A stretch of 64,000 nucleotides of DNA, taken from Escherichia coli. GTDB taxonomy: Bacteria > Pseudomonadota > Gammaproteobacteria > Enterobacterales > Enterobacteriaceae. Below the pieces are notes generated by a model. That model saw nothing but the letters and a program-made list of their open reading frames with translations. It was not told the origin of the DNA and did not search any database. The stretch lies in the NCBI RefSeq assembly GCF_009931435.1, contig NZ_CP043414.1; one strand, written 5' to 3'. How positions within the stretch are numbered: position 1 is the first letter of the stretch; every line of letters begins with the position of its first letter. The position numbers were made by a program, and so were the translations under genes. Shown here piece after piece: positions 2,319 to 36,092 of this stretch.

Positions 2319-2923
2319 TACTTTTCAGCACTCATAAAAAGCACGCTCCGACTACGATTAATCGCAGTCCAGATAAGCAGAATTGAAGCAATGCTCCATA
2401 AAAGATTATTCCATTGCATCCACTGTGGATAAATGGCAACGGCCAGCCCCCACAACCCAAATATTAACGCACGATCGCTTTTGCCAAATGGACCGGCATA
2501 ACTGCGAATACCGTTAATCGTCTGCGCGAGTAAACCGCAAAACTCAGTCAATATGGTGCAAAATAACATGAGTATTACGAGTGATGCGTTACTTTCCGGT
2601 AAAAATAAAAACGGTAAATAAAGCGCAATATCGGAAATAACATCGCCAGTTTCATTCAAAATCGCCCCAAGACGTGTTTGCTGATTACACTCACGCGCCA
2701 TCATGCCATCCAGCGCATTGAGTGCCATACGGACAAAAAGCACGATGGGCAATAGCAAAAAGAGGATGGGGCGTGCCACCAACATCAACAGCAATCCGGT
2801 AAGAAGAGAAAGCGCCAGTGCAGCAAGAGTGATGTGATTCGCTGTAACATGGTGCTTATTAAGCCAAAACATCGTCGGCCTTAACAGCGACTGAAAGAGC
2901 GGTTTTATCTGGTAGAGCGTCAT
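2318..2923 (-). CDS. ynbA: CDP-alcohol phosphatidyltransferase family membrane protein
   Basis: CDP-OH phosphotransferase signature D-G-x2-A-R...G-x3-D-x3-D (LDGMMARECNQQTRLGAILNETGDVISD). Native start taken as MTLYQIKPLF; the track ORF starts 2 codons earlier at 2929. Confidence 0.88.
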   Translation of the reverse strand: MTLYQIKPLFQSLLRPTMFWLNKHHVTANHITLAALALSLLTGLLLMLVARPILFLLLPIVLFVRMALNALDGMMARECNQQTRLGAILNETGDVISDIALYLPFLFLPESNASLVILMLFCTILTEFCGLLAQTINGIRSYAGPFGKSDRALIFGLWGLAVAIYPQWMQWNNLLWSIASILLIWTAINRSRSVLFMSAEK

Positions 2924-3093
2924 TATCAATCCTTGATAATTCGGTTTGCGCTATGGTGCATCAATTCCCCTGACGGAGATATCGCAACACGCCGCTTCAT
3001 TAAAAATTCAGAATATATCAAGGTATTGGGGACTCACCGTCAGGAATGATTATCCCCAATAGATCAAGTGGTTAAAAATTATTACGCTGTTAT

Positions 3094-5406
3094 TCAATAC
3101 AACTCATCAAGTTTTCTCATCGCTTGTTCCCGTATTGCGCGCGTCTTACCGTTAAGCGCCAGCTGGCGAACTAAATCCAGTTCAGGGTTAACAAGCTCTA
3201 ACGCCAGCAAAGGATCACGTTTCAGCCTCGCCTTCAATACATCAACTGGAAAGCGGGGATTATTCATCGCCACAATCCACCACTCGGGATCAATTTCTGC
3301 CGCCAGTGCCGCAGGGGGGGTGTGGCGGTTGCTAAGTGCGCCGAACTTGAAAAATGTGAGATTGCTTTTCGCCAGTGTACTCCACCATATACGATCCGGT
3401 TGTTTTGCCAGTACATCCAGTTGTGCTAACGCATCGGGGTCGAGTGCATAATAAACACGTAACGCTTCGTTAACCTGCGCACGGGAACTGTTTTCCTGCC
3501 TCAGAAAAAACTTCGCCCAAATATCATTGCGTGGCGTGTTTTGCTGTAATTCCTTGAGAACAACAGCGGGTAAATCATCCCAACTAATTAATGCACTCTC
3601 TAAAAAGTCCCAGTCGTCCGAACGTATCAGAGAGGTGGCATTTAATAGCATCTGGTCATCAACTTCACCGTAGCTGATAAGCTCAGACAAAATCATATCA
3701 GCGCTGGTTTCATATGCATCTGAATCTGCTTTGGGATTATTTTTCCGATGCGATAAAGCACGTTGCCAAATTTTTTGTTTCATCGACGTGCTCAGATACT
3801 GATTTTTCGCCAGATTACTCCACCCCTCAGGATCGTTGAAACGTGTCAATAACCGTTGTAGAGCAGCGTCAGAGTGAATTACCTGCATATCCCGACAGCA
3901 AAAGTAGGCAGGGGATTTTTTCTCCATCCTTTTAACAAAATTAAACTGTAAGTTATCTGGCAATGCTAAAAATAACACACGTATTAGATCATCGTCATTC
4001 TCGAATTTTTGGTATAAATATACTGCTATTTTGTCACTCTCTTGTGGCGTCATCCGCAACAATTGACCATGGTGTTTCATCTCTGCCAGTTTGAACGCTA
4101 ATCTTGTGACAACATCGTTTGATGAATCGTTCGCCAACTGCATTGCCTGATTGTAGGTGAGTTGTCCTCCAGCACCGACTTGACGAATAGAGGAATCATC
4201 ACTGCGGATATAGCCATCAATAATGGATTCGGGCAATAACCACGCATCTTTATAAAGCTCCTGAATGATCATATCCCAATCTCTTTTCGCCAGAGTCATG
4301 ACGATATCCAGAGGGAGATTTTCACGTAGCGCAAGATTCAACGGACCGACACCATCAGGTAGATGACTCATTCGCGTCATTATTTCGACAGAGAGCGGTT
4401 CACGGTCGAGCAACCCCAGAACAACAGGCTGGTAACCTAATTGCTGATCGGTCAACTCCAGAATCTCATTGTCAGGCATATATCTCGCCATACTTGCAAT
4501 CGTTTTTTCATCATTGCTATTAATAAGTTGTTTGCGTAGGTTAGCTGAAATTCCTTTAAGCCTTGGGAGAGTTCGCATTATGGCAAGATCAAATGTCGCA
4601 ATATCTCGTCCTTCAAATGCAGCAACGTTGCCTTCATCCAGAATTTGCAATTCCTGCACTAACTCAGGAGAAGGCTTAGGGCGAAACAGCGCTTCTTTTT
4701 TCATCTGATTACAGACATTCCCTGCCATGCGAATATTGCTTCGCTTAAAAATTTCTTTCAGAGCATCTTCATCATTTATTAGACCCCAATAATATGCATC
4801 AGGATTTATTATCATCAGCGCTTTTTTGACATTTTCAGTGTCATTTTTATCACTCGCACGGACCATGAATTCACTATTTGTCGAAGACGCAACAACAGGT
4901 GCAATTATGTCATTGATAAATATCCCACGCGCATTAATACTCCCCTTAATCGTAGACGGATTATCGTAATATGAATCGATAAATACCAGTCCACTTGCAT
5001 TTATCGAACCGGTAATTAACAGTGGTGAATCCGTAACTATATTCGTTGCCGTCACGTTACCGAGAATAACCCATGGATTAGAAAGAGAGAAAGTGGAAAT
5101 ATTACCTTTGACTGTCAAATTGCCAAGAACAATCAATTTTTGATTACTCTCTATATTACCTTCTACCACTAAATCGCCACGATGCACTTTCCAGTCCGAT
5201 GCAGATAAACCGAAGGGGACAAGATTCACGCTACTGTTGATAGCTTGTTCAACTTGCTGTTTATCTTCAGCGGTAGCCGCAGATAAAAATGGATTAATAT
5301 CAACTGCATTTGCAACACATCGAAGTTCCGCCTGTACTGGAAGACTCAGGATAAACAGGGGAAGTAAACGTATCCAGCCGCAAATCCTGGCCTTAAACAT
5401 ATGCAC
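3094..5406 (-). CDS. ydbD: YdbD, large exported protein of unknown function
   Basis: 770-aa ORF with N-terminal signal-peptide-like segment (MHMFKARICGWIRLLPLFILSLPVQA). Position between ynbA and ydbC matches E. coli ydbD. No catalytic motif recognised. Confidence 0.85.
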   Translation of the reverse strand: MHMFKARICGWIRLLPLFILSLPVQAELRCVANAVDINPFLSAATAEDKQQVEQAINSSVNLVPFGLSASDWKVHRGDLVVEGNIESNQKLIVLGNLTVKGNISTFSLSNPWVILGNVTATNIVTDSPLLITGSINASGLVFIDSYYDNPSTIKGSINARGIFINDIIAPVVASSTNSEFMVRASDKNDTENVKKALMIINPDAYYWGLINDEDALKEIFKRSNIRMAGNVCNQMKKEALFRPKPSPELVQELQILDEGNVAAFEGRDIATFDLAIMRTLPRLKGISANLRKQLINSNDEKTIASMARYMPDNEILELTDQQLGYQPVVLGLLDREPLSVEIMTRMSHLPDGVGPLNLALRENLPLDIVMTLAKRDWDMIIQELYKDAWLLPESIIDGYIRSDDSSIRQVGAGGQLTYNQAMQLANDSSNDVVTRLAFKLAEMKHHGQLLRMTPQESDKIAVYLYQKFENDDDLIRVLFLALPDNLQFNFVKRMEKKSPAYFCCRDMQVIHSDAALQRLLTRFNDPEGWSNLAKNQYLSTSMKQKIWQRALSHRKNNPKADSDAYETSADMILSELISYGEVDDQMLLNATSLIRSDDWDFLESALISWDDLPAVVLKELQQNTPRNDIWAKFFLRQENSSRAQVNEALRVYYALDPDALAQLDVLAKQPDRIWWSTLAKSNLTFFKFGALSNRHTPPAALAAEIDPEWWIVAMNNPRFPVDVLKARLKRDPLLALELVNPELDLVRQLALNGKTRAIREQAMRKLDELY

Positions 5407-21000: not shown

Positions 21001-21614
21001 TTGGCGGTTTGGATCATGTATTGAGTTTGACGGAAAACGTCAACATTCTGGTGCTGGATACGCAATGCTATTCCAATACCGGTGGTCAGGCGTCAAAAGC
21101 CACGCCGCTTGGCGCGGTGACTAAGTTTGGCGAGCACGGCAAACGTAAAGCGCGTAAAGATCTTGGCGTCAGTATGATGATGTACGGTCATGTTTATGTG
21201 GCGCAGATTTCTCTCGGCGCGCAGCTCAACCAGACGGTGAAAGCGATTCAGGAAGCGGAAGCGTATCCGGGGCCATCGCTGATCATCGCTTATAGCCCGT
21301 GTGAAGAGCATGGTTACGATCTGGCACTCAGTCACGACCAGATGCGCCAACTCACTGCTACCGGCTTCTGGCCGCTATATCGCTTTGATCCGCGTCGTGC
21401 CGATGAAGGCAAACTGCCGCTGGCGCTGGATTCACGACCGCCGTCAGAAGCACTGGAAGAAACGTTACTTCACGAGCAGCGTTTCCGTCGTCTGAATTCG
21501 CAGCAGCCAGAAGTGGCAGAACAGTTATGGAAAGATGCCGCAGCTGATTTGCAAAAACGCTATGACTTCCTGGCACAAATGGCCGGAAAAGCGGAAAAAA
21601 GCAACACCGATTAA
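18090..21614 (+). CDS. pfo: Pyruvate:flavodoxin/ferredoxin oxidoreductase (PFOR)
   Basis: 1174-aa ORF. Two 4Fe-4S ferredoxin CxxCxxCxxxCP motifs (CTQCNHCVAACP, CTGCNLCVEVCP). TPP-binding region (GGDGWAYDIG). MITIDGNGAVASVAFR N-terminus typical of PFOR. Confidence 0.96.
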   Translation: MITIDGNGAVASVAFRTSEVIAIYPITPSSTMAEQADAWAGNGLKNVWGDTPRVVEMQSEAGAIATVHGALQTGALSTSFTSSQGLLLMIPTLYKLAGELTPFVLHVAARTVATHALSIFGDHSDVMAVRQTGCAMLCAANVQEAQDFALITHIATLKSRVPFIHFFDGFRTSHEINKIVPLADDTILELMPQAEIDAHRARALNPEHPVIRGTSANPDTYFQSREATNPWYNAVYDHVEQAMNDFAAATGRQYQPFEYYGHPQAERVIILMGSAIGTCEEVVDELLTRGEKVGVLKVRLYRPFSAKHLLQALPDSVRIVAVLDRTKEPGAQAEPLYLDVMTALAEAFNNGERETLPRVIGGRYGLSSKEFGPDCVLAVFAELNAAKPKARFTVGIYDDVTNLSLPLPENTLPNSAKLEALFYGLGSDGSVSATKNNIKIIGNSTPWYAQGYFVYDSKKAGGLTVSHLRVSEQPIRSAYLISQADFVGCHQLQFIDKYQMAERLKPGGIFLLNTPYSAEEVWSRLPQEVQAVLNQKKARFYVINAAKIARECGLAARINTVMQMAFFHLTQILPGDSALAELQGAIAKSYSSKGQDLVERNWQALALARESVEEVPLQPVNPHSANRPPVVSDAAPDFVKTVTAAMLAGLGDALPVSALPPDGTWPMGTTRWEKRNIAEEIPIWKEELCTQCNHCVAACPHSAIRAKVVPPEAMENAPASLHSLDVKSRDMRGQKYVLQVAPEDCTGCNLCVEVCPAKDRQDPEIKAINMMSRLEHVEEEKINYDFFLNLPEIDRSKLERIDIRTSQLITPLFEYSGACSGCGETPYIKLLTQLYGDRMLIANATGCSSIYGGNLPSTPYTTDANGRGPAWANSLFEDNAEFGLGFRLTVDQHRVRVLRLLDQFADKIPAELLTALKSDATPEVRREQVAALRQQLNDVAEAHELLRDADALVEKSIWLIGGDGWAYDIGFGGLDHVLSLTENVNILVLDTQCYSNTGGQASKATPLGAVTKFGEHGKRKARKDLGVSMMMYGHVYVAQISLGAQLNQTVKAIQEAEAYPGPSLIIAYSPCEEHGYDLALSHDQMRQLTATGFWPLYRFDPRRADEGKLPLALDSRPPSEALEETLLHEQRFRRLNSQQPEVAEQLWKDAAADLQKRYDFLAQMAGKAEKSNTD

Positions 21615-21642
21615 ATGCTCTGGATAAGGATTATCCAATTCT

Positions 21643-21680
21643 AAAAAAAAGCCCGGACGACTGTTCGGGCTTGTCTTTTT
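21643..21680. terminator. Bidirectional Rho-independent terminator (pfo on plus, micC on minus)
   Basis: Hairpin gcccggacgactgttcgggc (21651-21670) flanked by an A-run (21643-21650) and a T-rich run (21671-21680). Confidence 0.85.
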
Positions 21681-21752
21681 ATATGTTGGAAAATCAGTGG
21701 CAATGCAATGGCCCAACAGAAAATAAAATCTGTGACAATAAAGGCATATAAC
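21643..21752 (-). ncRNA. micC: MicC small regulatory RNA
   Basis: Minus-strand sequence reads GTTATATGCCTTTATTGTCACAGATTTTATTTTCTGTTGGGCCATTGCATTGCCACTGATTTTCCAACATAT...GCCCGAACAGTCGTCCGGGCTTTTTTTT, which I recognise as MicC. It lies in the pfo-ompN spacer, divergent from ompN. Confidence 0.88.
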
Positions 21753-21979
21753 TCGCGCAGAATAACGTATAGCAAATTAAAAGTATAATTTTTATTTTGT
21801 ATGTATTATCTTCGATACATTCACCAGACTTATTATCATTTCAGAGGAATTATTTGATTAAGGTTTTACTTAAGGCGTAACAAATGATATTTATCGGCTA
21901 ACTGAACTTCTCCTTTAGGATGTTTTCATTCCCCGAAATGGGGATAAAAGGCAAATAAAATAACTAAAGGATTTATTCA

Positions 21980-23172: not shown

Positions 23173-23688
<516 letters not shown>

Positions 23689-23694
23689 CACTAA

Positions 23695-23720
23695 CGCCCG
23701 CACATTGCTGCGGGCTTTTT
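23695..23720 (+). terminator. Rho-independent terminator after uspF
   Basis: Hairpin gcccgcacattgctgcgggc followed by ttttt. Confidence 0.8.
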
Positions 23721-23863
23721 GATTCATTTCGCAAATGTGCTGACATTTTCCCCTCTAATCCGTACCATACACGCCACAGTTTTTATATCAGATTTCTTAT
23801 GCTGGGCGTTCCGGCATGACGCATACTCTTCTGATGCCATATAACGAATTGAGTCGCTTTTAA

Positions 23864-24799
23864 ATGTCGCAAAATCAAGAAATTAGTAAGAAAGAACAAT
23901 ACAATCTCAACAAATTACAAAAACGTCTGCGTCGTAACGTGGGCGAAGCCATTGCTGACTTCAATATGATTGAAGAAGGCGATCGCATCATGGTTTGCCT
24001 CTCCGGGGGTAAAGACAGCTATACCATGCTGGAGATTCTGCGCAATTTGCAGCAAAGCGCGCCAATCAATTTTTCGCTGGTGGCTGTTAACCTCGATCAA
24101 AAGCAACCGGGCTTCCCGGAACACGTTCTGCCCGAGTATCTTGAAAAGCTGGGCATTGAGTACAAGATTGTGGAAGAGAACACTTACGGTATCGTGAAAG
24201 AGAAGATTCCGGAGGGCAAAACCACTTGCTCACTGTGTTCTCGTCTTCGTCGCGGAATTCTTTACCGTACCGCAACGGAACTGGGAGCGACGAAGATCGC
24301 GCTGGGTCACCATCGTGACGATATCCTGCAAACGTTGTTCTTAAATATGTTCTACGGCGGCAAGATGAAAGGTATGCCTCCGAAACTGATGAGCGATGAT
24401 GGCAAACATATTGTGATTCGTCCGCTGGCCTACTGCCGCGAGAAAGATATTCAGCGCTTTGCCGATGCAAAAGCGTTCCCGATTATTCCGTGCAACCTGT
24501 GCGGTTCACAGCCTAACCTGCAACGTCAGGTGATTGCTGACATGTTGCGTGACTGGGATAAACGTTATCCGGGGCGTATCGAGACGATGTTCAGCGCGAT
24601 GCAGAATGTGGTGCCGTCGCATCTGTGCGATACCAACCTGTTCGATTTCAAAGGCATTACCCACGGTTCTGAAGTGGTTAACGGGGGTGATCTGGCGTTT
24701 GATCGCGAAGAGATCCCTCTACAACCGGCGGGTTGGCAGCCTGAAGAAGATGAAAATCAGTTGGATGAGTTACGACTGAATGTGGTTGAAGTGAAATAA
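23864..24799 (+). CDS. ttcA: tRNA 2-thiocytidine(32) synthetase TtcA
   Basis: 311-aa ORF. PP-loop SGGKDS motif ([11 protein letters not shown]). Fe-S cluster cysteines ([16 protein letters not shown]). Confidence 0.95.
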
Positions 24800-26562: not shown

Positions 26563-26684
26563 AAAAAAAAGCCGACTCATCAAAGTCGGCGTCGTACGAA
26601 TCAATTGTGCTATGCAGTAATTCAAAAAAGGAAGTAAGACAATATGGAGCGCAACGCCCATCGCTTGACGTTGCATTCACCTGC
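26563..26684 (-). ncRNA. fnrS: FnrS small regulatory RNA (FNR-activated)
   Basis: Minus strand reads GCAGGTGAATGCAACGTCAAGCGATGGGCGTTGCGCTCCATATTGTCTTACTTCCTTTTTTGAATTACTGCATAGCACAATTGATTCGTACGACGCCGACTTTGATGAGTCGGCTTTTTTTT. Intrinsic terminator at the 3' end; lies in the dbpA-zntB spacer. Confidence 0.88.
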
Positions 26685-29834: not shown

Positions 29835-30061
29835 GTTACATCCTCCCGCAATTAAGAGCGCGATATGATAACCAGACCGGGTCGGTCCAACAACGTATTA
29901 CCCAAAATTCCAGTAATAAGTTCCAAATATTGCCGATATTTTAAGCAAAATGCTTATGCATGATTATTCATTCACGATGTTAATAATGTAACTTATATTT
30001 TCGTGAAATCTGTCACTGAAGAAAATTGGCAACTAAAGGTTAAAACCGTTATAACACAGTC

Positions 30062-30157
30062 ACCGGCGCAGAGGAGACCATGCCGGATTTAAGACGCGGA
30101 TGCACTGCTGTGTGTACTGTAGAGTCTGGCGGATGTCGACAGACTCTATTTTTTTAT
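30062..30157 (+). ncRNA. mcaS: McaS small regulatory RNA
   Basis: ACCGGCGCAGAGGAGAC...GGATGCACTGCTGTGTGTACTGTAGAGTCTGGCGGATGTCGACAGACTCTATTTTTTTAT, with terminal hairpin plus T-run. Located in the smrA-abgR spacer. Exact ends approximate. Confidence 0.8.
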
Positions 30158-30163
30158 GCAGTT

Positions 30164-31072
30164 TTAACTTTGCAGATAGCCGCTTTCTCGCCGAAATTGC
30201 GTGATTAATGACGCGGTCAGTGGTGTCTGGCGACTATCACGCCGCTGAATCAAATAATAGGCCGCTTTCGGTAAAATTTCGCTAACCGGCAACATCACCA
30301 GCCCCTGTCCGTGCAAGGGATCGCAGCCCATTTCTTCAGGTAGTATGCTGAGAAAATCGCTTTTTGCCACCAGACTGATACAGGCTGAAAACGTCTCGCA
30401 GACTACGCCGACCTGTGGCGTTTGCGCCTGATCGTCAAGCAATTCACTCAACTGTTTGTAGTAGCTGCCGTGTGGCGTCGGCATTGTCCAGCTGTAGTCC
30501 AGTAACTGTTTGATCGAACGGGCACCAATGGCGGGATGTCCTGGGCGGCAAAAGATCGCGAATTGCTTTTCCAGTAATTTCTCAAAAGTAAATTCGTGGT
30601 CGTAGGGTCCCTGATAATAGGTATTGATGGTGAAATCCAGTTCTCCCTGGCGCAATTCATTAATCATCGACACCAGTTGCCCTTCCATAATGCGTACTTT
30701 TACCTGCGGATGCTGCTGATGAAAACGAGATATGACAGCTGGCATCAGACTGCGGGAAATACTGGCCCCCATGCCGATATTAATTTGCCCTGCCAGTTGC
30801 CCTTGTCGTTGGCGAATATCCTCTTGCGCTGCGCGCAGCTCTTCAAGAATAAGACTGGCGTGCTGATAAAAACTTTCACCGGCATCAGTTAACGTCACGC
30901 CTTTACTACGGCGAAAAAAGAGTTGCGCCGCTAACCCTTCTTCCAGCTCCTGAATAGATTTACTCAGTGCCGGTTGCGACATATTCAACATTCGGCTCGC
31001 TCCGCGAATGCTGCCCTGACGAGCCACTTCAACAAAAGCCCGAATTTGATGAATTTTTACCTGAAAAGCCAT
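30164..31072 (-). CDS. abgR: LysR-family transcriptional regulator AbgR
   Basis: 302-aa ORF. N-terminal HTH (IRAFVEVARQGSIRGASRMLNMSQPALSKSIQELEEGL). Divergent from abgA. Confidence 0.94.
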   Translation of the reverse strand: MAFQVKIHQIRAFVEVARQGSIRGASRMLNMSQPALSKSIQELEEGLAAQLFFRRSKGVTLTDAGESFYQHASLILEELRAAQEDIRQRQGQLAGQINIGMGASISRSLMPAVISRFHQQHPQVKVRIMEGQLVSMINELRQGELDFTINTYYQGPYDHEFTFEKLLEKQFAIFCRPGHPAIGARSIKQLLDYSWTMPTPHGSYYKQLSELLDDQAQTPQVGVVCETFSACISLVAKSDFLSILPEEMGCDPLHGQGLVMLPVSEILPKAAYYLIQRRDSRQTPLTASLITQFRRESGYLQS

Positions 31073-31247
31073 GACGCCACCGATAACCGTTATTTATCAG
31101 ACCAAAGAAACTGGCATCTACTTTAATGCAGATGATTGTGTCAGGGTAATTTATGAACGGTTAAAACTGTGAAAAATCAGTTAGTGATAAGTAAAAACTA
31201 TCACTACGTGAACCGGGTCACATTTTTTACTGATGACGGGAAAGGTT

Positions 31248-32558
31248 ATGGAGTCTTTGAATCAATTTGTTAATTCGCTTGCCCCAAGATTATCGCACTG
31301 GCGACGTGATTTTCATCGCTATGCAGAGTCTGGCTGGGTGGAATTCCGCACAGCCACCCTTGTTGCAGAAGAATTGCACCAGCTCGGCTATTCACTGGCG
31401 CTGGGCCGCGAAGTCGTTAATGAAAGTAGTCGGATGGGACTACCTGATGAATTCACTCTACAGCGCGAATTCGAGCGCGCTCTTCAACAAGGTGCGTTAG
31501 CACAATGGATTGCGGCTTTTGAAGGTGGTTTCACTGGCATCGTCGCCACCCTGGATACCGGTCGCCCCGGTCCGGTGATGGCTTTCCGTGTCGATATGGA
31601 CGCGCTGGATCTCAGTGAAGAACGGGATGTCAGCCATCGCCCCTACCGCGACGGTTTTGCGTCATGTAACGCCGGAATGATGCATGCCTGTGGTCATGAT
31701 GGACATACCGCTATTGGGCTTGGGCTGGCGCACACCCTTAAACAGTTCGAGTCCGGACTACATGGCATCATCAAACTGATTTTTCAGCCTGCAGAGGAAG
31801 GTACGCGTGGCGCGCGGGCGATGGTCGATGCAGGTGTAGTGGATGATGTTGATTATTTTACTGCCGTGCACATTGGCACTGGCGTACCTGCGGGCACCGT
31901 GGTGTGCGGCAGTGATAATTTTATGGCAACAACCAAATTTGACGCGTACTTCACCGGGACCGCCGCTCACGCAGGCGCAAAACCAGAAGATGGTCACAAT
32001 GCCTTGTTGGCGGCAGCACAAGCAACTCTTGCACTGCATGCAATCGCCCCGCACAGCGAAGGCGCTTCCAGAGTAAACGTGGGCGTTATGCAGGCAGGAA
32101 GCGGTCGTAATGTGGTTCCCGCCTCAGCGTTGCTGAAAGTGGAAACACGCGGGGCCAGCGACGTCATTAATCAATATGTTTTTGACCGTGCACAACAAGC
32201 GATTCAGGGCGCAGCAGCCATGTATGGTGTCGGCGTTGAAACTCGGCTGATGGGTGCAGCTACCGCCAGTTCTCCTTCGCCGCAATGGGTCGCATGGTTA
32301 CAAAGCCAGGCGGCTCAGGTCGCGGGGGTCAATCAGGCCATTGAACGTGTTGAAGCGCCTGCGGGTTCCGAAGATGCCACATTAATGATGGCCCGCGTGC
32401 AGCGACATCAAGGGCAAGCCTCCTACATGGTATTTGGCACACAGCTGGCGGCAGGTCATCACAACGAAAAATTCGATTTTGACGAGCAGGTTCTCGCTAT
32501 TGCCGTCGAAACGCTGGCGCGCACCGCGCTCAATTTTCCCTGGACGCGAGGTATCTGA
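31248..32558 (+). CDS. abgA: p-Aminobenzoyl-glutamate hydrolase subunit A (M20 peptidase family)
   Basis: 436 aa from MESLNQFVNSLAPRL. M20 metal-binding His/Asp/Glu residues. Stop overlaps the abgB start (TGATG). Confidence 0.94.
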   Translation: MESLNQFVNSLAPRLSHWRRDFHRYAESGWVEFRTATLVAEELHQLGYSLALGREVVNESSRMGLPDEFTLQREFERALQQGALAQWIAAFEGGFTGIVATLDTGRPGPVMAFRVDMDALDLSEERDVSHRPYRDGFASCNAGMMHACGHDGHTAIGLGLAHTLKQFESGLHGIIKLIFQPAEEGTRGARAMVDAGVVDDVDYFTAVHIGTGVPAGTVVCGSDNFMATTKFDAYFTGTAAHAGAKPEDGHNALLAAAQATLALHAIAPHSEGASRVNVGVMQAGSGRNVVPASALLKVETRGASDVINQYVFDRAQQAIQGAAAMYGVGVETRLMGAATASSPSPQWVAWLQSQAAQVAGVNQAIERVEAPAGSEDATLMMARVQRHQGQASYMVFGTQLAAGHHNEKFDFDEQVLAIAVETLARTALNFPWTRGI

Positions 32559-34003
32559 TGCAGGAAATCTATCGTTTTATCGACGATGCGATTGAAGCCG
32601 ATCGCCAACGTTATACCGATATTGCTGATCAAATCTGGGATCATCCAGAAACACGTTTTGAAGAGTTCTGGTCAGCGGAACATCTGGCTTCGGCGCTGGA
32701 ATCTGCAGGCTTCACCGTGACTCGCAACGTAGGCAATATCCCAAATGCCTTTATTGCTTCGTTTGGTCAAGACAAACCGGTTATCGCCTTGCTGGGGGAA
32801 TATGACGCCCTGGCAGGTTTAAGTCAGCAAGCAGGTTGCGCGCAGCCTACATCCACGACGCCCGGTGAAAATGGTCACGGTTGCGGACACAATTTGCTCG
32901 GAACCGCCGCCTTTGCCGCAGCAATAGCCGTCAAGAAATGGCTGGAACAATATGGGCAAGGCGGCACGGTGCGCTTTTATGGTTGTCCTGGCGAAGAAGG
33001 CGGCTCGGGTAAAACGTTCATGGTCCGCGAGGGGGTATTTGATGATGTGGATGCGGCACTCACCTGGCACCCGGAAGCCTTTGCCGGTATGTTCAATACC
33101 CGCACGCTGGCAAATATTCAAGCATCATGGCGCTTTAAAGGGATCGCAGCACATGCTGCAAATTCCCCTCATTTGGGACGCAGCGCCCTTGATGCCGTAA
33201 CGTTGATGACCACTGGCACCAACTTCCTCAACGAACATATTATTGAAAAAGCGCGCGTACACTATGCCATCACAGAGAGCGGCGGGATCTCGCCCAACGT
33301 GGTCCAGGCGCAGGCAGAAGTGCTTTATCTTATCCGCGCCCCCGAAATGACCGACGTGCAGCATATTTATGATCGGGTAGCCAAAATCGCCGAAGGTGCG
33401 GCATTGATGACCGAAACCACGGTTGAATGCCGCTTCGACAAAGCCTGTTCCAGTTATCTCCCTAATCGCACCTTAGAAAAGGCCATGTACCAGGCTCTGT
33501 CCCATTTTGGAACCCCTGAATGGAAATCCGAAGAACTGGCTTTTGCGAAACAAATTCAGGCTACGCTCACCCCCAACGATCGGCAAAACAGTCTGAATAA
33601 TATCGCCGCAACCGGTGGAGAAAACGGCAAGGCTTTTGCAATACGTCATCGTGAAACGGTACTGGCGAATGAAGTCGCTCCATATGCCGCCACCGATAAC
33701 GTGCTTGCGGCATCGACTGATGTCGGCGACGTCAGTTGGAAACTGCCTGTTGCCCAGTGTTTCAGCCCCTGTTTCGCCGTCGGTACACCGCTACATACGT
33801 GGCAACTGGTTAGCCAGGGGCGAACGTCTATTGCTCATAAAGGAATGCTGCTGGCGGCGAAAACTATGGCAGCAACCACACTCAATCTCTTCACTGTTTC
33901 AGGGCTATTGCAAGAATGCCAACAAGAGCATCAGCAAGTTACGGACACGCAACCGTATCACTGCCCTATTCCGAAAAACGTGACACCGTCACCTTTAAAA
34001 TAA
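32558..34003 (+). CDS. abgB: p-Aminobenzoyl-glutamate hydrolase subunit B (M20 peptidase family)
   Basis: 481-aa ORF, MQEIYRFIDDAIEADRQRY..., M20 family. Confidence 0.94.
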   Translation: MQEIYRFIDDAIEADRQRYTDIADQIWDHPETRFEEFWSAEHLASALESAGFTVTRNVGNIPNAFIASFGQDKPVIALLGEYDALAGLSQQAGCAQPTSTTPGENGHGCGHNLLGTAAFAAAIAVKKWLEQYGQGGTVRFYGCPGEEGGSGKTFMVREGVFDDVDAALTWHPEAFAGMFNTRTLANIQASWRFKGIAAHAANSPHLGRSALDAVTLMTTGTNFLNEHIIEKARVHYAITESGGISPNVVQAQAEVLYLIRAPEMTDVQHIYDRVAKIAEGAALMTETTVECRFDKACSSYLPNRTLEKAMYQALSHFGTPEWKSEELAFAKQIQATLTPNDRQNSLNNIAATGGENGKAFAIRHRETVLANEVAPYAATDNVLAASTDVGDVSWKLPVAQCFSPCFAVGTPLHTWQLVSQGRTSIAHKGMLLAAKTMAATTLNLFTVSGLLQECQQEHQQVTDTQPYHCPIPKNVTPSPLK

Positions 34004-34039
34004 CAACAACAACGCAAACACAACAATCGAGGAATGCCC

Positions 34040-35566
34040 ATGAGTATGTCATCCATACCGTCGTCCTCCCAATCCGGGAAGCTCTATGGCTGGGTCGAAA
34101 GAATTGGTAACAAGGTTCCCCATCCTTTTTTGCTCTTTATCTATTTGATTATCGTACTCATGGTGACGACGGCAATTTTGTCGGCCTTTGGCGTCAGTGC
34201 GAAAAACCCGACCGATGGTACGCCAGTGGTCGTGAAAAACCTGCTCAGTGTGGAAGGATTACACTGGTTTTTACCCAATGTTATTAAAAACTTTAGCGGT
34301 TTTGCTCCACTTGGCGCGATCCTGGCGCTGGTTTTAGGTGCCGGTCTGGCGGAGCGCGTCGGCTTACTGCCAGCGTTGATGGTTAAAATGGCATCGCATG
34401 TGAATGCTCGCTACGCCAGTTATATGGCGCTGTTTATTGCTTTTTTCAGCCACATTTCTTCCGATGCGGCGTTAGTGATCATGCCACCGATGGGTGCGCT
34501 GATTTTTCTGGCGGTGGGCAGGCATCCAGTTGCAGGCTTACTGGCCGCCATTGCAGGCGTAGGTTGCGGCTTTACGGCTAATTTACTGATTGTCACAACC
34601 GACGTGTTGCTGTCGGGGATCAGCACGGAGGCTGCGGCTGCGTTCAATCCGCAAATGCACGTCAGTGTAATTGATAACTGGTATTTTATGGCCAGCTCCG
34701 TAGTCGTACTGACGATTGTTGGCGGCCTGATAACCGACAAAATCATTGAGCCGCGGTTAGGTCAATGGCAGGGAAATTGCGATGAGAAACTGCAAACCTT
34801 GACCGAAAGTCAGCGTTTTGGTTTACGCATATCAGGTGTCGTATCGCTACTTTTTATTGCCGCAATTGCGCTGATGGTGATCCCGGAAAATGGGATATTG
34901 CGCGATCCGATTAATCACACCGTGATGCCATCCCCCTTTATTAAAGGTATCGTGCCACTGATCATTCTCTTTTTCTTTGTGGTTTCGCTGGCTTATGGCA
35001 TCGCTACCCGCACAATTCGACGTCAGGCGGATTTACCGCATTTAATGATTGAACCGATGAAAGAGATGGCGGGATTTATCGTGATGGTTTTTCCCCTGGC
35101 CCAGTTTGTCGCCATGTTTAACTGGAGCAACATGGGGAAATTCATCGCGGTGGGGCTGACCGATATACTCGAAAGTTCAGGGCTTAGCGGCATCCCGGCG
35201 TTTGTCGGTCTGGCGTTGCTTTCCTCTTTCTTATGCATGTTTATCGCCAGCGGTTCCGCAATCTGGTCGATTCTGGCCCCCATTTTCGTACCAATGTTTA
35301 TGCTACTTGGCTTTCACCCGGCATTTGCGCAAATCCTCTTTCGTATTGCCGACTCATCCGTATTGCCTTTAGCGCCGGTATCTCCTTTTGTTCCACTGTT
35401 TCTTGGATTCCTGCAACGCTACAAACCTGACGCGAAACTGGGTACTTACTATTCGTTAGTTTTGCCCTATCCACTTTTCTTTTTGGTGGTATGGCTGCTG
35501 ATGTTGCTGGCGTGGTATCTTGTCGGTCTGCCGATAGGTCCGGGGATTTACCCTCGTTTGTCTTAA
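34040..35566 (+). CDS. abgT: p-Aminobenzoyl-glutamate transporter AbgT
   Basis: About 508-aa polytopic membrane protein. Start taken at the ATG encoding MSMSSIPSS; an in-frame ATG two codons upstream (34034) is the alternative. Confidence 0.92.
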
Positions 35567-35576
35567 GAGAGAACGG

Positions 35577-36092
35577 ATGCTGAGATTACTTGAAGAAAAA
35601 ATTGCCACGCCACTAGGTCCACTGTGGGTGATTTGCGATGAGCAATTTCACTTGCGGGCGGTTGAATGGGAAGAGTACAGCGAACGCATGGTGCAGCTGC
35701 TGGACATCCATTACCGCAAAGAAGGCTATGAGCGCATTTCTGCCACCAACCCAGGTGGTTTAAGCGACAAGCTTCGTGAATATTTTGCCGGTAATCTTAG
35801 CATTATTGATACGCTTCCCACTGCCACGGGGGGGACGCCATTTCAGCGCGAAGTCTGGAAAACATTACGCACAATCCCCTGCGGGCAGGTAATGCATTAC
35901 GGCCAACTGGCTGAACAATTGGGCCGCCCCGGCGCGGCGCGTGCCGTAGGTGCGGCAAATGGATCGAATCCCATCAGCATTGTTGTGCCTTGTCATCGGG
36001 TCATTGGCAGAAACGGTACCATGACCGGATATGCAGGCGGAGTTCAGCGAAAAGAGTGGTTATTACGCCACGAAGGTTATCTTTTGCTGTAA
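35577..36092 (+). CDS. ogt: O6-alkylguanine-DNA alkyltransferase
   Basis: 171-aa ORF with active-site PCHRV motif ([13 protein letters not shown]). Confidence 0.96.

What the first reader, a model, noticed from the sequence alone, without database searches (positions are those of the whole stretch)
30062..30157. McaS sRNA packed against the 3' end of abgR
A ~95-nt plus-strand sequence with terminal hairpin and T-run matches McaS and ends only 6 bp before the abgR stop codon (convergent). Transcription of one could therefore interfere with the other.
Basis: partly seen in the sequence, partly recalled or inferred. Interest (0 to 1): 0.25.

Follow-up and report, generated by a model that had tools for sequence, protein, structure and literature searches.

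The report
Known McaS small RNA beside abgR
This is the already well-studied E. coli small regulatory RNA McaS in its normal chromosomal place, ending 6-8 bases from the stop codon of the oppositely oriented abgR gene; the tight fit is the standard arrangement and nothing found here shows that it has a regulatory role.

Summary
Rfam's McaS model (RF00115) matches window 30062-30157 (+) end to end at 117 bits against a gathering score of 42, E 3.9e-21. The sequence is 95/96 identical to K-12 mcaS (b4426). The convergent 302-aa ORF at 30164-31072 (-) is abgR.

The gap is 6 bp from the Rfam model end. It is 8 bp from the mapped RNA 3' end at 30155, because the RNA is 94 nt and ends in seven U.

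McaS is a known cAMP-CRP-induced RNA that binds Hfq and CsrA and acts in trans on csgD, flhDC and pgaA.

The interference idea is geometrically real. abgR has no room for a terminator of its own, and the McaS hairpin has a T-run on one side only, so abgR transcripts must run antisense into mcaS. However, a paper citing the original McaS study says McaS does not affect abgR mRNA. In addition, 1169 of 5426 complete E. coli genomes and several other Escherichia species keep mcaS beside a decayed abgR. Citrobacter and Pseudescherichia have mcaS directly upstream of ogt, with no abg genes.

The conserved neighbour is smrA, not abgR. Verdict: already known, ordinary, low interest.

The parts
30062..30155 (+). 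mcaS (isrA) gene, encoding a 94-nt mature small RNA. The Rfam match runs 2 nt further, to 30157.
   Evidence: RF00115 at 117 bits, full length. It is 95/96 identical to K-12 b4426, differing only at nt 18, C instead of A, in the loop of hairpin 1. K-12 annotation gives 94 nt. The 94-nt RNA with 7 U was recovered experimentally (PMC4824073).
30063..30086 (+). Hairpin 1 of McaS (model positions 2-25). It carries GGA motifs at 30073-30075 and 30085-30087.
   Evidence: Rfam consensus structure alignment. GGA motifs lie at McaS nt 12, 24, 37 and 70. Four GGA motifs, two of which bind CsrA, are reported for K-12 McaS (PMC10729762; PMC4098024).
30094..30113 (+). Hairpin 2 of McaS (model positions 33-52). 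A GGA motif lies at 30098-30100.
   Evidence: Rfam alignment. Positions 37-60 are nearly invariant in 15 homologues, though positions 53-58 (GTACTG) were fixed by the search pattern that collected the non-E. coli sequences.
30119..30155 (+). Rho-independent terminator of McaS. The 12-pair hairpin is at 30119-30149 and the run of seven T at 30149-30155. A GGA motif sits in the upper stem and loop at 30131-30133.
   Evidence: the hairpin is recovered in the minimum-energy fold. All 12 pairs are kept in 15 homologues, although part of this stretch was fixed by the search pattern that found them.
30156..30163 (.). 8-bp spacer between the McaS 3' end and the abgR stop codon (6 bp if counted from the Rfam model end).
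   Evidence: The junction ATGCAGTTTTAAC is identical in the window, K-12 and three other E. coli strains.
30164..31072 (-). abgR, a LysR-type regulator of the abg (p-aminobenzoyl-glutamate) genes, convergent with mcaS.
   Evidence: NCBIfam NF007307 equivalog, 628.9 bits. Annotated abgR in RefSeq records.
30002..30055 (+). Putative mcaS promoter. A CRP-like site CGTGA-N6-TCACT lies at 30002-30017. The -35 TTGGCA is at 30026-30031, followed by an 18-bp spacer and the -10 TATAAC at 30050-30055, which ends 6 nt before the +1 A at 30062.
   Evidence: Read directly from the sequence. CRP pattern hit with 2 mismatches (such hits are not enriched in the window as a whole). The block is conserved in Escherichia and Citrobacter. 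cAMP-CRP activation of McaS is reported in PMC4152358.
29271..29834 (-). smrA, transcribed divergently from mcaS. This is the neighbour that stays with mcaS in most genomes examined.
   Evidence: NCBIfam NF033154, 253.1 bits. smrA lies upstream of McaS in 10 of the 12 non-window loci with a McaS match; one of the other two has no upstream sequence to judge.

Best explanation
Window 30062-30155 (+) is the mcaS (isrA, IS061) gene of E. coli in its usual locus, smrA < mcaS > < abgR.

It is transcribed from a sigma-70-type promoter with an upstream CRP-like site and ends at a strong Rho-independent terminator with seven U. The 94-nt RNA acts in trans. With Hfq it base-pairs with csgD mRNA (repression and cleavage) and flhDC mRNA (activation). 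Through exposed GGA motifs it titrates CsrA and so raises pgaA expression. The result shifts cells between motility, curli and PGA biofilm when carbon is limiting. These functions come from the literature on K-12; the window allele differs from K-12 by one loop base.

The 6-8-bp spacing to the abgR stop codon is the standard, ancient arrangement. The 5.4-kb abg block is wedged between the McaS terminator and ogt, which starts 10 bp after abgT.

The McaS terminator is one-directional by sequence. abgR transcripts therefore must extend antisense into mcaS, at least through the terminator hairpin. This overlap is most likely a tolerated by-product of compaction rather than a regulatory device (inference).
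For: Identity:
- Full-length Rfam match far above the gathering score.
- 95/96 identity to the curated K-12 mcaS.
- Same neighbours, dgcM-smrA-mcaS-abgR-abgA-abgB.
- A 136-bp query spanning mcaS and the gap matches 5304 of 5426 complete E. coli genomes.

Function (from the literature):
- cAMP-CRP activation, Hfq-dependent action on csgD and flhDC, and CsrA binding through GGA motifs (PMC4152358; PMC4098024; PMC6061853; PMC10729762).
- All four GGA motifs are present in the window.

The packing is not needed for McaS:
- 1169 of 5426 E. coli genomes carry mcaS next to an abgR pseudogene remnant and an abgT remnant.
- E. albertii, E. whittamii and Escherichia sp. E1V33 have McaS above the gathering score with no abgR match downstream at E 1e-5; a short stretch that looks by eye like the abgR 3' end sits there, followed by ogt.
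- Three of the four Citrobacter loci and three Pseudescherichia-group genomes have mcaS 56-63 bp upstream of ogt. The fourth Citrobacter locus is the C. amalonaticus S646 case listed under 'The arrangement is old'.
- A paper citing Thomason 2012 states that McaS has no effect on abgR mRNA (PMC4281340).

The arrangement is old:
- An intact abgR is still 6 bp from a diverged mcaS allele whose upstream flank is different (L006).
- An abgR fragment ends 5 bp from McaS in C. amalonaticus S646.

Such packing is ordinary:
- In the same window MicC ends about 20-27 bp from the convergent nifJ/ydbK stop codon.
Against: - No expression data exist for this strain.
- The two primary McaS papers (PMC3312966, PMC3672647) are not held in the library, so the 'no effect on abgR' result is second-hand.
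- Covariation support for hairpins 1 and 2 in my 15-sequence alignment is no better than shuffled controls, so the structure rests on the Rfam model score.
- The effect of abgR transcription on McaS synthesis has not been tested in anything I could read.
- Both genes are reported to be CRP-induced, so they would be transcribed at the same time.
Confidence: 0.93

Rival explanations
1. The convergent overlap is functional. abgR transcripts read antisense through mcaS and lower or tune McaS output, either by polymerase collision or by forming an RNA duplex with McaS that is cleaved or sequestered. Alternatively, McaS transcription blocks completion of abgR mRNA. This would couple folate-catabolite use to biofilm control under cAMP-CRP.
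For: - Only 6-8 bp separate the McaS 3' end from the abgR stop.
- The scan found no minus-strand terminator between abgR and smrA.
- The minus-strand copy of the hairpin is followed by CAGUACACACAG, not a U-run.
- McaS and abgR are both reported to be cAMP-CRP activated, and the abgR promoter bound CRP in a gel-shift assay (PMC4152358; PMC6390033).
- CRP-like sites lie at 30002-30017 and 31207-31222.
- The spacing is kept at 5-7 bp in distant lineages.
Against: - McaS is reported to have no effect on the antisense abgR mRNA (PMC4281340 citing Thomason 2012).
- mcaS is retained, with its promoter and terminator conserved, where abgR is decayed or absent: about 21.5% of complete E. coli genomes, at least three other Escherichia species, Citrobacter and Pseudescherichia.
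- Curated 3'-end and Rho-termination tables for MG1655 list nothing in this region, so no antisense ends are on record there. That result is uninformative rather than negative.
Confidence: 0.1
2. The McaS terminator hairpin is a shared bidirectional terminator that also ends the abgR transcript. In that case the overlap is limited to about 40 nt and there is little read-through in either direction.
For: - The same hairpin forms in the minus-strand RNA.
- There is no room for any other abgR terminator.
- Convergent genes sharing one hairpin are common in E. coli (general knowledge). The MicC/nifJ pair in this window looks like one, with an A-run and a T-run on either side of the hairpin.
Against: - On the abgR strand the hairpin is preceded by an A-run but followed by CAGUACACACAG, with no U-tract. 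The defining feature of an intrinsic terminator is therefore missing in that direction.
- The terminator scan found none on the minus strand here.
- Even if it did work, the abgR 3' UTR would still be complementary to the last 35-40 nt of McaS.
Confidence: 0.12
3. The region encodes a small protein: the mechanical ORF at 30080..30208 (+), 42 aa, starts inside McaS.
For: The ORF is listed. Its ATG lies at McaS nt 19-21.
Against: - The ORF runs through the terminator and stops 53 nt past the mapped RNA 3' end, so the 94-nt RNA has no in-frame stop codon.
- The ATG is absent from other E. coli alleles and from other species (AGG or ATA at that position).
Confidence: 0.01

Closest known systems
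McaS / IsrA / IS061 small RNA of E. coli K-12 (Rfam RF00115; gene b4426)
   Same: Same gene. The match is full length, 95/96 nt are identical, and the three hairpins, four GGA motifs, seven-U terminator, promoter block and neighbours (smrA, abgR) are all the same.
   Different: There is one substitution, A18C, in the loop of hairpin 1. Exactly matching alleles exist in other E. coli genomes (100% hits). Nothing else differs.
GadY-type cis-encoded antisense small RNAs that overlap the 3' UTR of a convergent gene
   Same: The layout is convergent, and the neighbouring mRNA's 3' UTR must be complementary to the small RNA's 3' end.
   Different: GadY acts on its overlapping gadX mRNA. McaS is reported to have no effect on abgR mRNA (PMC4281340) and works in trans on csgD, flhDC and CsrA. 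It also persists where abgR is lost.
Bidirectional intrinsic terminators between convergent genes (for example MicC/nifJ in this window)
   Same: One GC-rich hairpin sits between two convergent transcription units with a very short spacer.
   Different: The McaS hairpin has a T-run on the McaS side only. The MicC/nifJ hairpin has A- and T-runs on both sides.

Membership tests
McaS/IsrA RNA (Rfam RF00115) | Covariance-model score at or above the curated gathering score, over the full model | tested here: met
   117.0 bits against 42, positions 1-96 of 96, E 3.9e-21
McaS/IsrA RNA (Rfam RF00115) | Near-identity to the experimentally characterised K-12 gene b4426 | tested here: met
   95/96 identical, with the same 5' end
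McaS/IsrA RNA (Rfam RF00115) | Three-hairpin structure supported by compensatory changes | tested here: inconclusive
   87% of cells are paired, against 32-44% for slid partners. Covariation is no better than shuffles, helix 3 is nearly invariant, and hairpin 1 is misaligned by MAFFT in distant species. The single-sequence fold gives the terminator hairpin but a different 5' fold.
McaS/IsrA RNA (Rfam RF00115) | Rho-independent terminator with a long U-tail (Hfq-binding type) | tested here: met
   A 12-pair hairpin followed by seven T at 30149-30155. Hfq binding itself is not testable here.
McaS/IsrA RNA (Rfam RF00115) | GGA motifs for CsrA binding (four in K-12, two functional) | tested here: met
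   GGA at nt 12, 24, 37 and 70. Literature: PMC10729762. Only presence was tested, not binding.
McaS/IsrA RNA (Rfam RF00115) | Conserved locus next to smrA, between smrA and abgR or ogt | tested here: met
McaS/IsrA RNA (Rfam RF00115) | cAMP-CRP-dependent expression | tested here: inconclusive
   A CRP-like site at 30002-30017 is conserved in Escherichia and Citrobacter. Sites of this quality are not enriched in the window (18 found, 27.8 expected). Expression cannot be tested here.
McaS/IsrA RNA (Rfam RF00115) | Base-pairing with the csgD and flhD leaders | not tested
   The targets lie outside the window. The pairing regions are identical to K-12 except possibly nt 18, which lies near the region reported to bind flhD (PMC10729762).
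Cis-antisense regulator of the convergent gene (GadY-like) | The small RNA changes the level or processing of the overlapping mRNA | not testable with these tools
   The literature reports no effect of McaS on abgR mRNA (PMC4281340 citing Thomason 2012).
Bidirectional intrinsic terminator | Hairpin followed by a U-tract on both strands (A-tract upstream and T-tract downstream) | tested here: not met
   The minus strand reads hairpin then CAGUACACACAG. No minus-strand terminator was found. The MicC/nifJ pair in this window does show both runs.

The most novel reading that the evidence does not exclude
abgR transcripts have no terminator of their own and are induced by cAMP-CRP together with McaS. 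They could therefore act as an obligatory antisense partner of McaS, through polymerase collision or as a duplex-forming sponge, and limit McaS output in abg-positive strains. The recurrent loss of abgR (about a fifth of E. coli genomes and several other Escherichia species) would then release McaS and shift biofilm and motility set-points between lineages.
Probability: 0.06. Interest if true: 0.35.

Novelty: already known. Interest (0 to 1): 0.07.

Why it matters
It matters little beyond correct annotation. McaS is a characterised regulator of curli, flagella and PGA biofilm, and PGAP-annotated genomes usually omit it: it was missing from every PGAP record I opened, whereas the curated K-12 record lists it.

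The only mildly useful points are comparative. The sRNA's constant neighbour is smrA rather than abgR, and abgR has been lost repeatedly while mcaS stays. These natural deletions give ready-made strains for testing whether convergent abgR transcription has any influence on McaS.

Tried and rejected
- **Primary McaS papers:** Thomason 2012 (PMC3312966, PMID 22289118) and Jorgensen 2013 (PMC3672647) are not held. Function and the abgR test are therefore cited from secondary papers.
- **Public 3'-end data:** the supplementary tables of the MG1655 Term-seq/Rho study (PMC7815308) contain no entry for mcaS, abgR or smrA, and none for coordinates 1404xxx-1406xxx. They do not list fnrS or micC by name either, so this is uninformative. 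A Rend-seq annotation paper has no supplementary files held as text.
- **Literature on the gene pair:** a full-text search for McaS plus abgR gave only one relevant paper. A search for IsrA plus abgR gave only noise.
- **Covariation test:** the Rfam structure tested on 15 homologues was not informative. The homologues were collected with an exact pattern inside the terminator, which forces conservation there. It also means relatives with a changed terminator loop were missed.
- **Chance hits to the pattern:** the six matches outside Enterobacteriaceae appear to be chance. None of the five that were scanned reached the Rfam threshold, and the archaeal hit was left out for size.
- **Promoter and terminator scanner:** it missed both the mcaS promoter (the -10 ends in C) and the McaS terminator (interrupted stem). 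These were read by eye instead.
- **Small-protein reading:** the ORF at 30080-30208 was rejected.

Full report
**Observation**

Window 30062-30157 on the plus strand matches the Rfam McaS/IsrA model (RF00115) over all 96 model positions. The score is 117.0 bits against a gathering score of 42, E 3.9e-21.

The sequence shows the three hairpins of the model and a terminal 12-pair hairpin at 30119-30149. A run of seven T follows at 30149-30155. The single-sequence fold reproduces the terminator hairpin, with z = -2.6 against shuffles, but folds the 5' half differently.

The convergent minus-strand ORF at 30164-31072 (302 aa) matches the NCBIfam equivalog NF007307 at 628.9 bits, cut-off 336. Matching RefSeq genomes annotate it as abgR.

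The curated K-12 MG1655 record gives mcaS (b4426) as 94 nt, lying 8 bp from abgR. [quoted passage not shown] The RNA therefore ends at window 30155, and the true gap is 8 bp.

The window allele differs from K-12 at one base, nt 18 (C for A), in the loop of hairpin 1.

**What it is and how it works**

This is the known mcaS gene in its known place. The order in the window is zntB-ynaN-dgcM-smrA(-)-mcaS(+)-abgR(-)-abgA-abgB-abgT-ogt-fnr, the same as in K-12.

Upstream of the annotated 5' end I read a promoter directly from the sequence:
- -35 TTGGCA at 30026-30031
- an 18-bp spacer
- -10 TATAAC at 30050-30055
- six bases, then the +1 A at 30062
- a CRP-like site CGTGA-N6-TCACT at 30002-30017

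This block is conserved across E. coli locus types and in other Escherichia and Citrobacter. CRP-like matches of this quality are not enriched in the window as a whole.

The function comes from the literature. McaS is activated by cAMP-CRP. With Hfq it represses csgD and promotes its cleavage, and it activates flhDC. Through GGA motifs it binds CsrA and raises pgaA expression (PMC4152358; PMC4098024; PMC6061853; PMC10729762). It also competes for Hfq when overproduced (bioRxiv 10.1101/2021.05.11.443692). All four GGA motifs are present in the window allele, at nt 12, 24, 37 and 70.

**The packing against abgR**

There is no room for an abgR terminator in 6-8 bp. The pattern scan found no minus-strand terminator between abgR and smrA. 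The minus-strand RNA does form the mirror hairpin, but CAGUACACACAG follows it rather than a U-run. By sequence the terminator is one-directional, so abgR transcripts must be antisense to at least the 3' part of mcaS. If they read on, they enter smrA in the sense direction.

In the same window, MicC at 21635-21755 (-) ends about 20-27 bp from the convergent nifJ/ydbK stop at 21614. That hairpin has an A-run on one side and a T-run on the other, the look of a bidirectional terminator. Tight convergent packing of a small-RNA terminator against an ORF end is therefore ordinary, although the McaS case lacks the second U-tract.

Both genes seem to be switched on by the same signal. McaS is induced by cAMP-CRP. 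A strand-specific RNA-seq study places abgR in its Crp-cAMP-dependent group under carbon limitation, and its promoter bound CRP in a gel-shift assay (PMC6390033). A one-mismatch CRP site lies at 31207-31222, in the abgR-abgA intergenic region.

**Evidence against a required interaction**

[quoted passage not shown] 2012 (PMC4281340). I could not read the primary paper.
- Nature has repeated the deletion experiment many times. E. coli shows three locus types:
  - Type A (window, K-12): smrA-mcaS-abgR.
  - Type B: an AraC-family gene, a diverged mcaS allele, then an intact abgR, with the gap still 6 bp (L006).
  - Type C: the AraC-family gene, mcaS, an abgR pseudogene remnant, an abgT remnant, then ogt.
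- A query spanning the type C junctions covers at least 80% of its length in 1169 of 5426 complete genomes.
- A pattern scan of one genome per species found McaS above the Rfam gathering score in 12 enterobacterial loci. These include E. albertii, E. whittamii, two unnamed Escherichia species, four Citrobacter loci, Pseudescherichia vulneris and an unnamed Enterobacteriaceae genome.
- smrA lies upstream in 10 of those 12 loci. One of the other two has no upstream sequence to judge.
- No intact abgR lies downstream in any of the 12:
  - Three Escherichia species give no abgR match at E 1e-5. They carry only a short stretch that by eye resembles the abgR 3' end, followed by ogt about 255 bp away.
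  - C. amalonaticus S646 keeps an abgR fragment (residues 161-302, 61% identity) that ends 5 bp from McaS.
  - Six genomes (three Citrobacter, three of the Pseudescherichia group) have ogt starting 56-63 bp after McaS, with no abg sequence.

The juxtaposition is therefore old, abgR has been lost repeatedly, and mcaS with its promoter and terminator stays. This argues that the overlap is tolerated, not needed. It does not exclude a modulatory effect of abgR transcription on McaS in abg-positive strains, which nobody seems to have tested.

**Limits**

- The homologues were collected with an exact pattern inside the terminator, so conservation there is partly imposed and more distant relatives were missed.
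- Covariation in my alignment is no better than shuffled controls.
- Public MG1655 3'-end and Rho tables list nothing in this region, which says nothing either way.

**Comparison with known systems, and verdict**

It is a member of RF00115 and the orthologue of K-12 mcaS. It resembles GadY-type cis-antisense RNAs only in layout, not in reported action. It does not meet the sequence definition of a bidirectional terminator.

Novelty: already known. Interest is low. The only open thread is the untested direction of interference (abgR on McaS). I rate this unlikely to matter, and the naturally abgR-less lineages would make it easy to test.

Noticed in passing
window 23688-23913 (between uspF and ttcA): The window strain lacks the 23-kb Rac cryptic prophage that K-12 carries at ttcA (K-12 1411899-1434958). 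The K-12 flanks align to the window on either side of about 23871-23913, with a roughly 43-bp overlap, as expected for an empty attachment site.
   Followed up: partly
window 21614-21755: MicC (Rfam 125 bits, minus strand) ends 20-27 bp from the convergent nifJ/ydbK stop codon at 21614. The shared hairpin at about 21650-21672 has an A-run before it and a T-run after it, so it looks like a bidirectional terminator. This is a second, more classical case of sRNA/ORF convergent packing in the same window.
   Followed up: partly
window 26567-26684 (-): The FnrS small RNA (Rfam RF01796, 134.8 bits) lies between dbpA and zntB, its normal place. This window therefore holds three known sRNA genes within 9 kb.
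   Followed up: no
window 30164-35576: The 5.4-kb abgR-abgA-abgB-abgT block is wedged very tightly between mcaS (8 bp) and ogt (the abgT stop at 35566 is 10 bp from the ogt ATG at 35577). Species without abg have mcaS and ogt 56-63 bp apart. The block behaves as a presence/absence unit with repeated decay: remnants occur in 1169 of 5426 E. coli genomes, in three other Escherichia species and in one Citrobacter.
   Followed up: partly
L004 (E. coli ETEC1739, NZ_CP122758.1), locus about 2584-3352: An IS1 element is inserted inside mcaS at the start of the terminator stem. It separates the first 62 nt or so from the terminator, making this a natural mcaS knockout.
   Followed up: no
L003, L005, L006, L007 (E. 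coli with an AraC-family gene upstream of mcaS): In many E. coli genomes the left neighbour of mcaS is not smrA. It is an AraC-family regulator with HlyD and MFS efflux genes, and similarity to the window starts only about 100 bp upstream of the McaS 5' end. These strains carry a diverged hairpin-1 allele (for example CCGGTCACCAGGACCCCAGGCCGG) that keeps the GGA motif. One such strain has an intact abgR identical at the junction, so recombination breakpoints appear to fall within or next to mcaS.
   Followed up: partly
window 39001-64000: This 25-kb stretch (ycjM-ycjT sugar genes, mppA, tyrR and others) is only 90-95% identical to its best match in 4995 of the 5458 E. coli records with a match. 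It is 98.2% identical at best. That is more diverged than the mcaS region, which is 98.0% identical to K-12.
   Followed up: no
window 31207-31222: The best CRP-consensus match in the window, CGTGAACCGGGTCACA with one mismatch, lies in the divergent abgR-abgA promoter region. This fits the published report that CRP binds the abgR promoter (PMC6390033).
   Followed up: no
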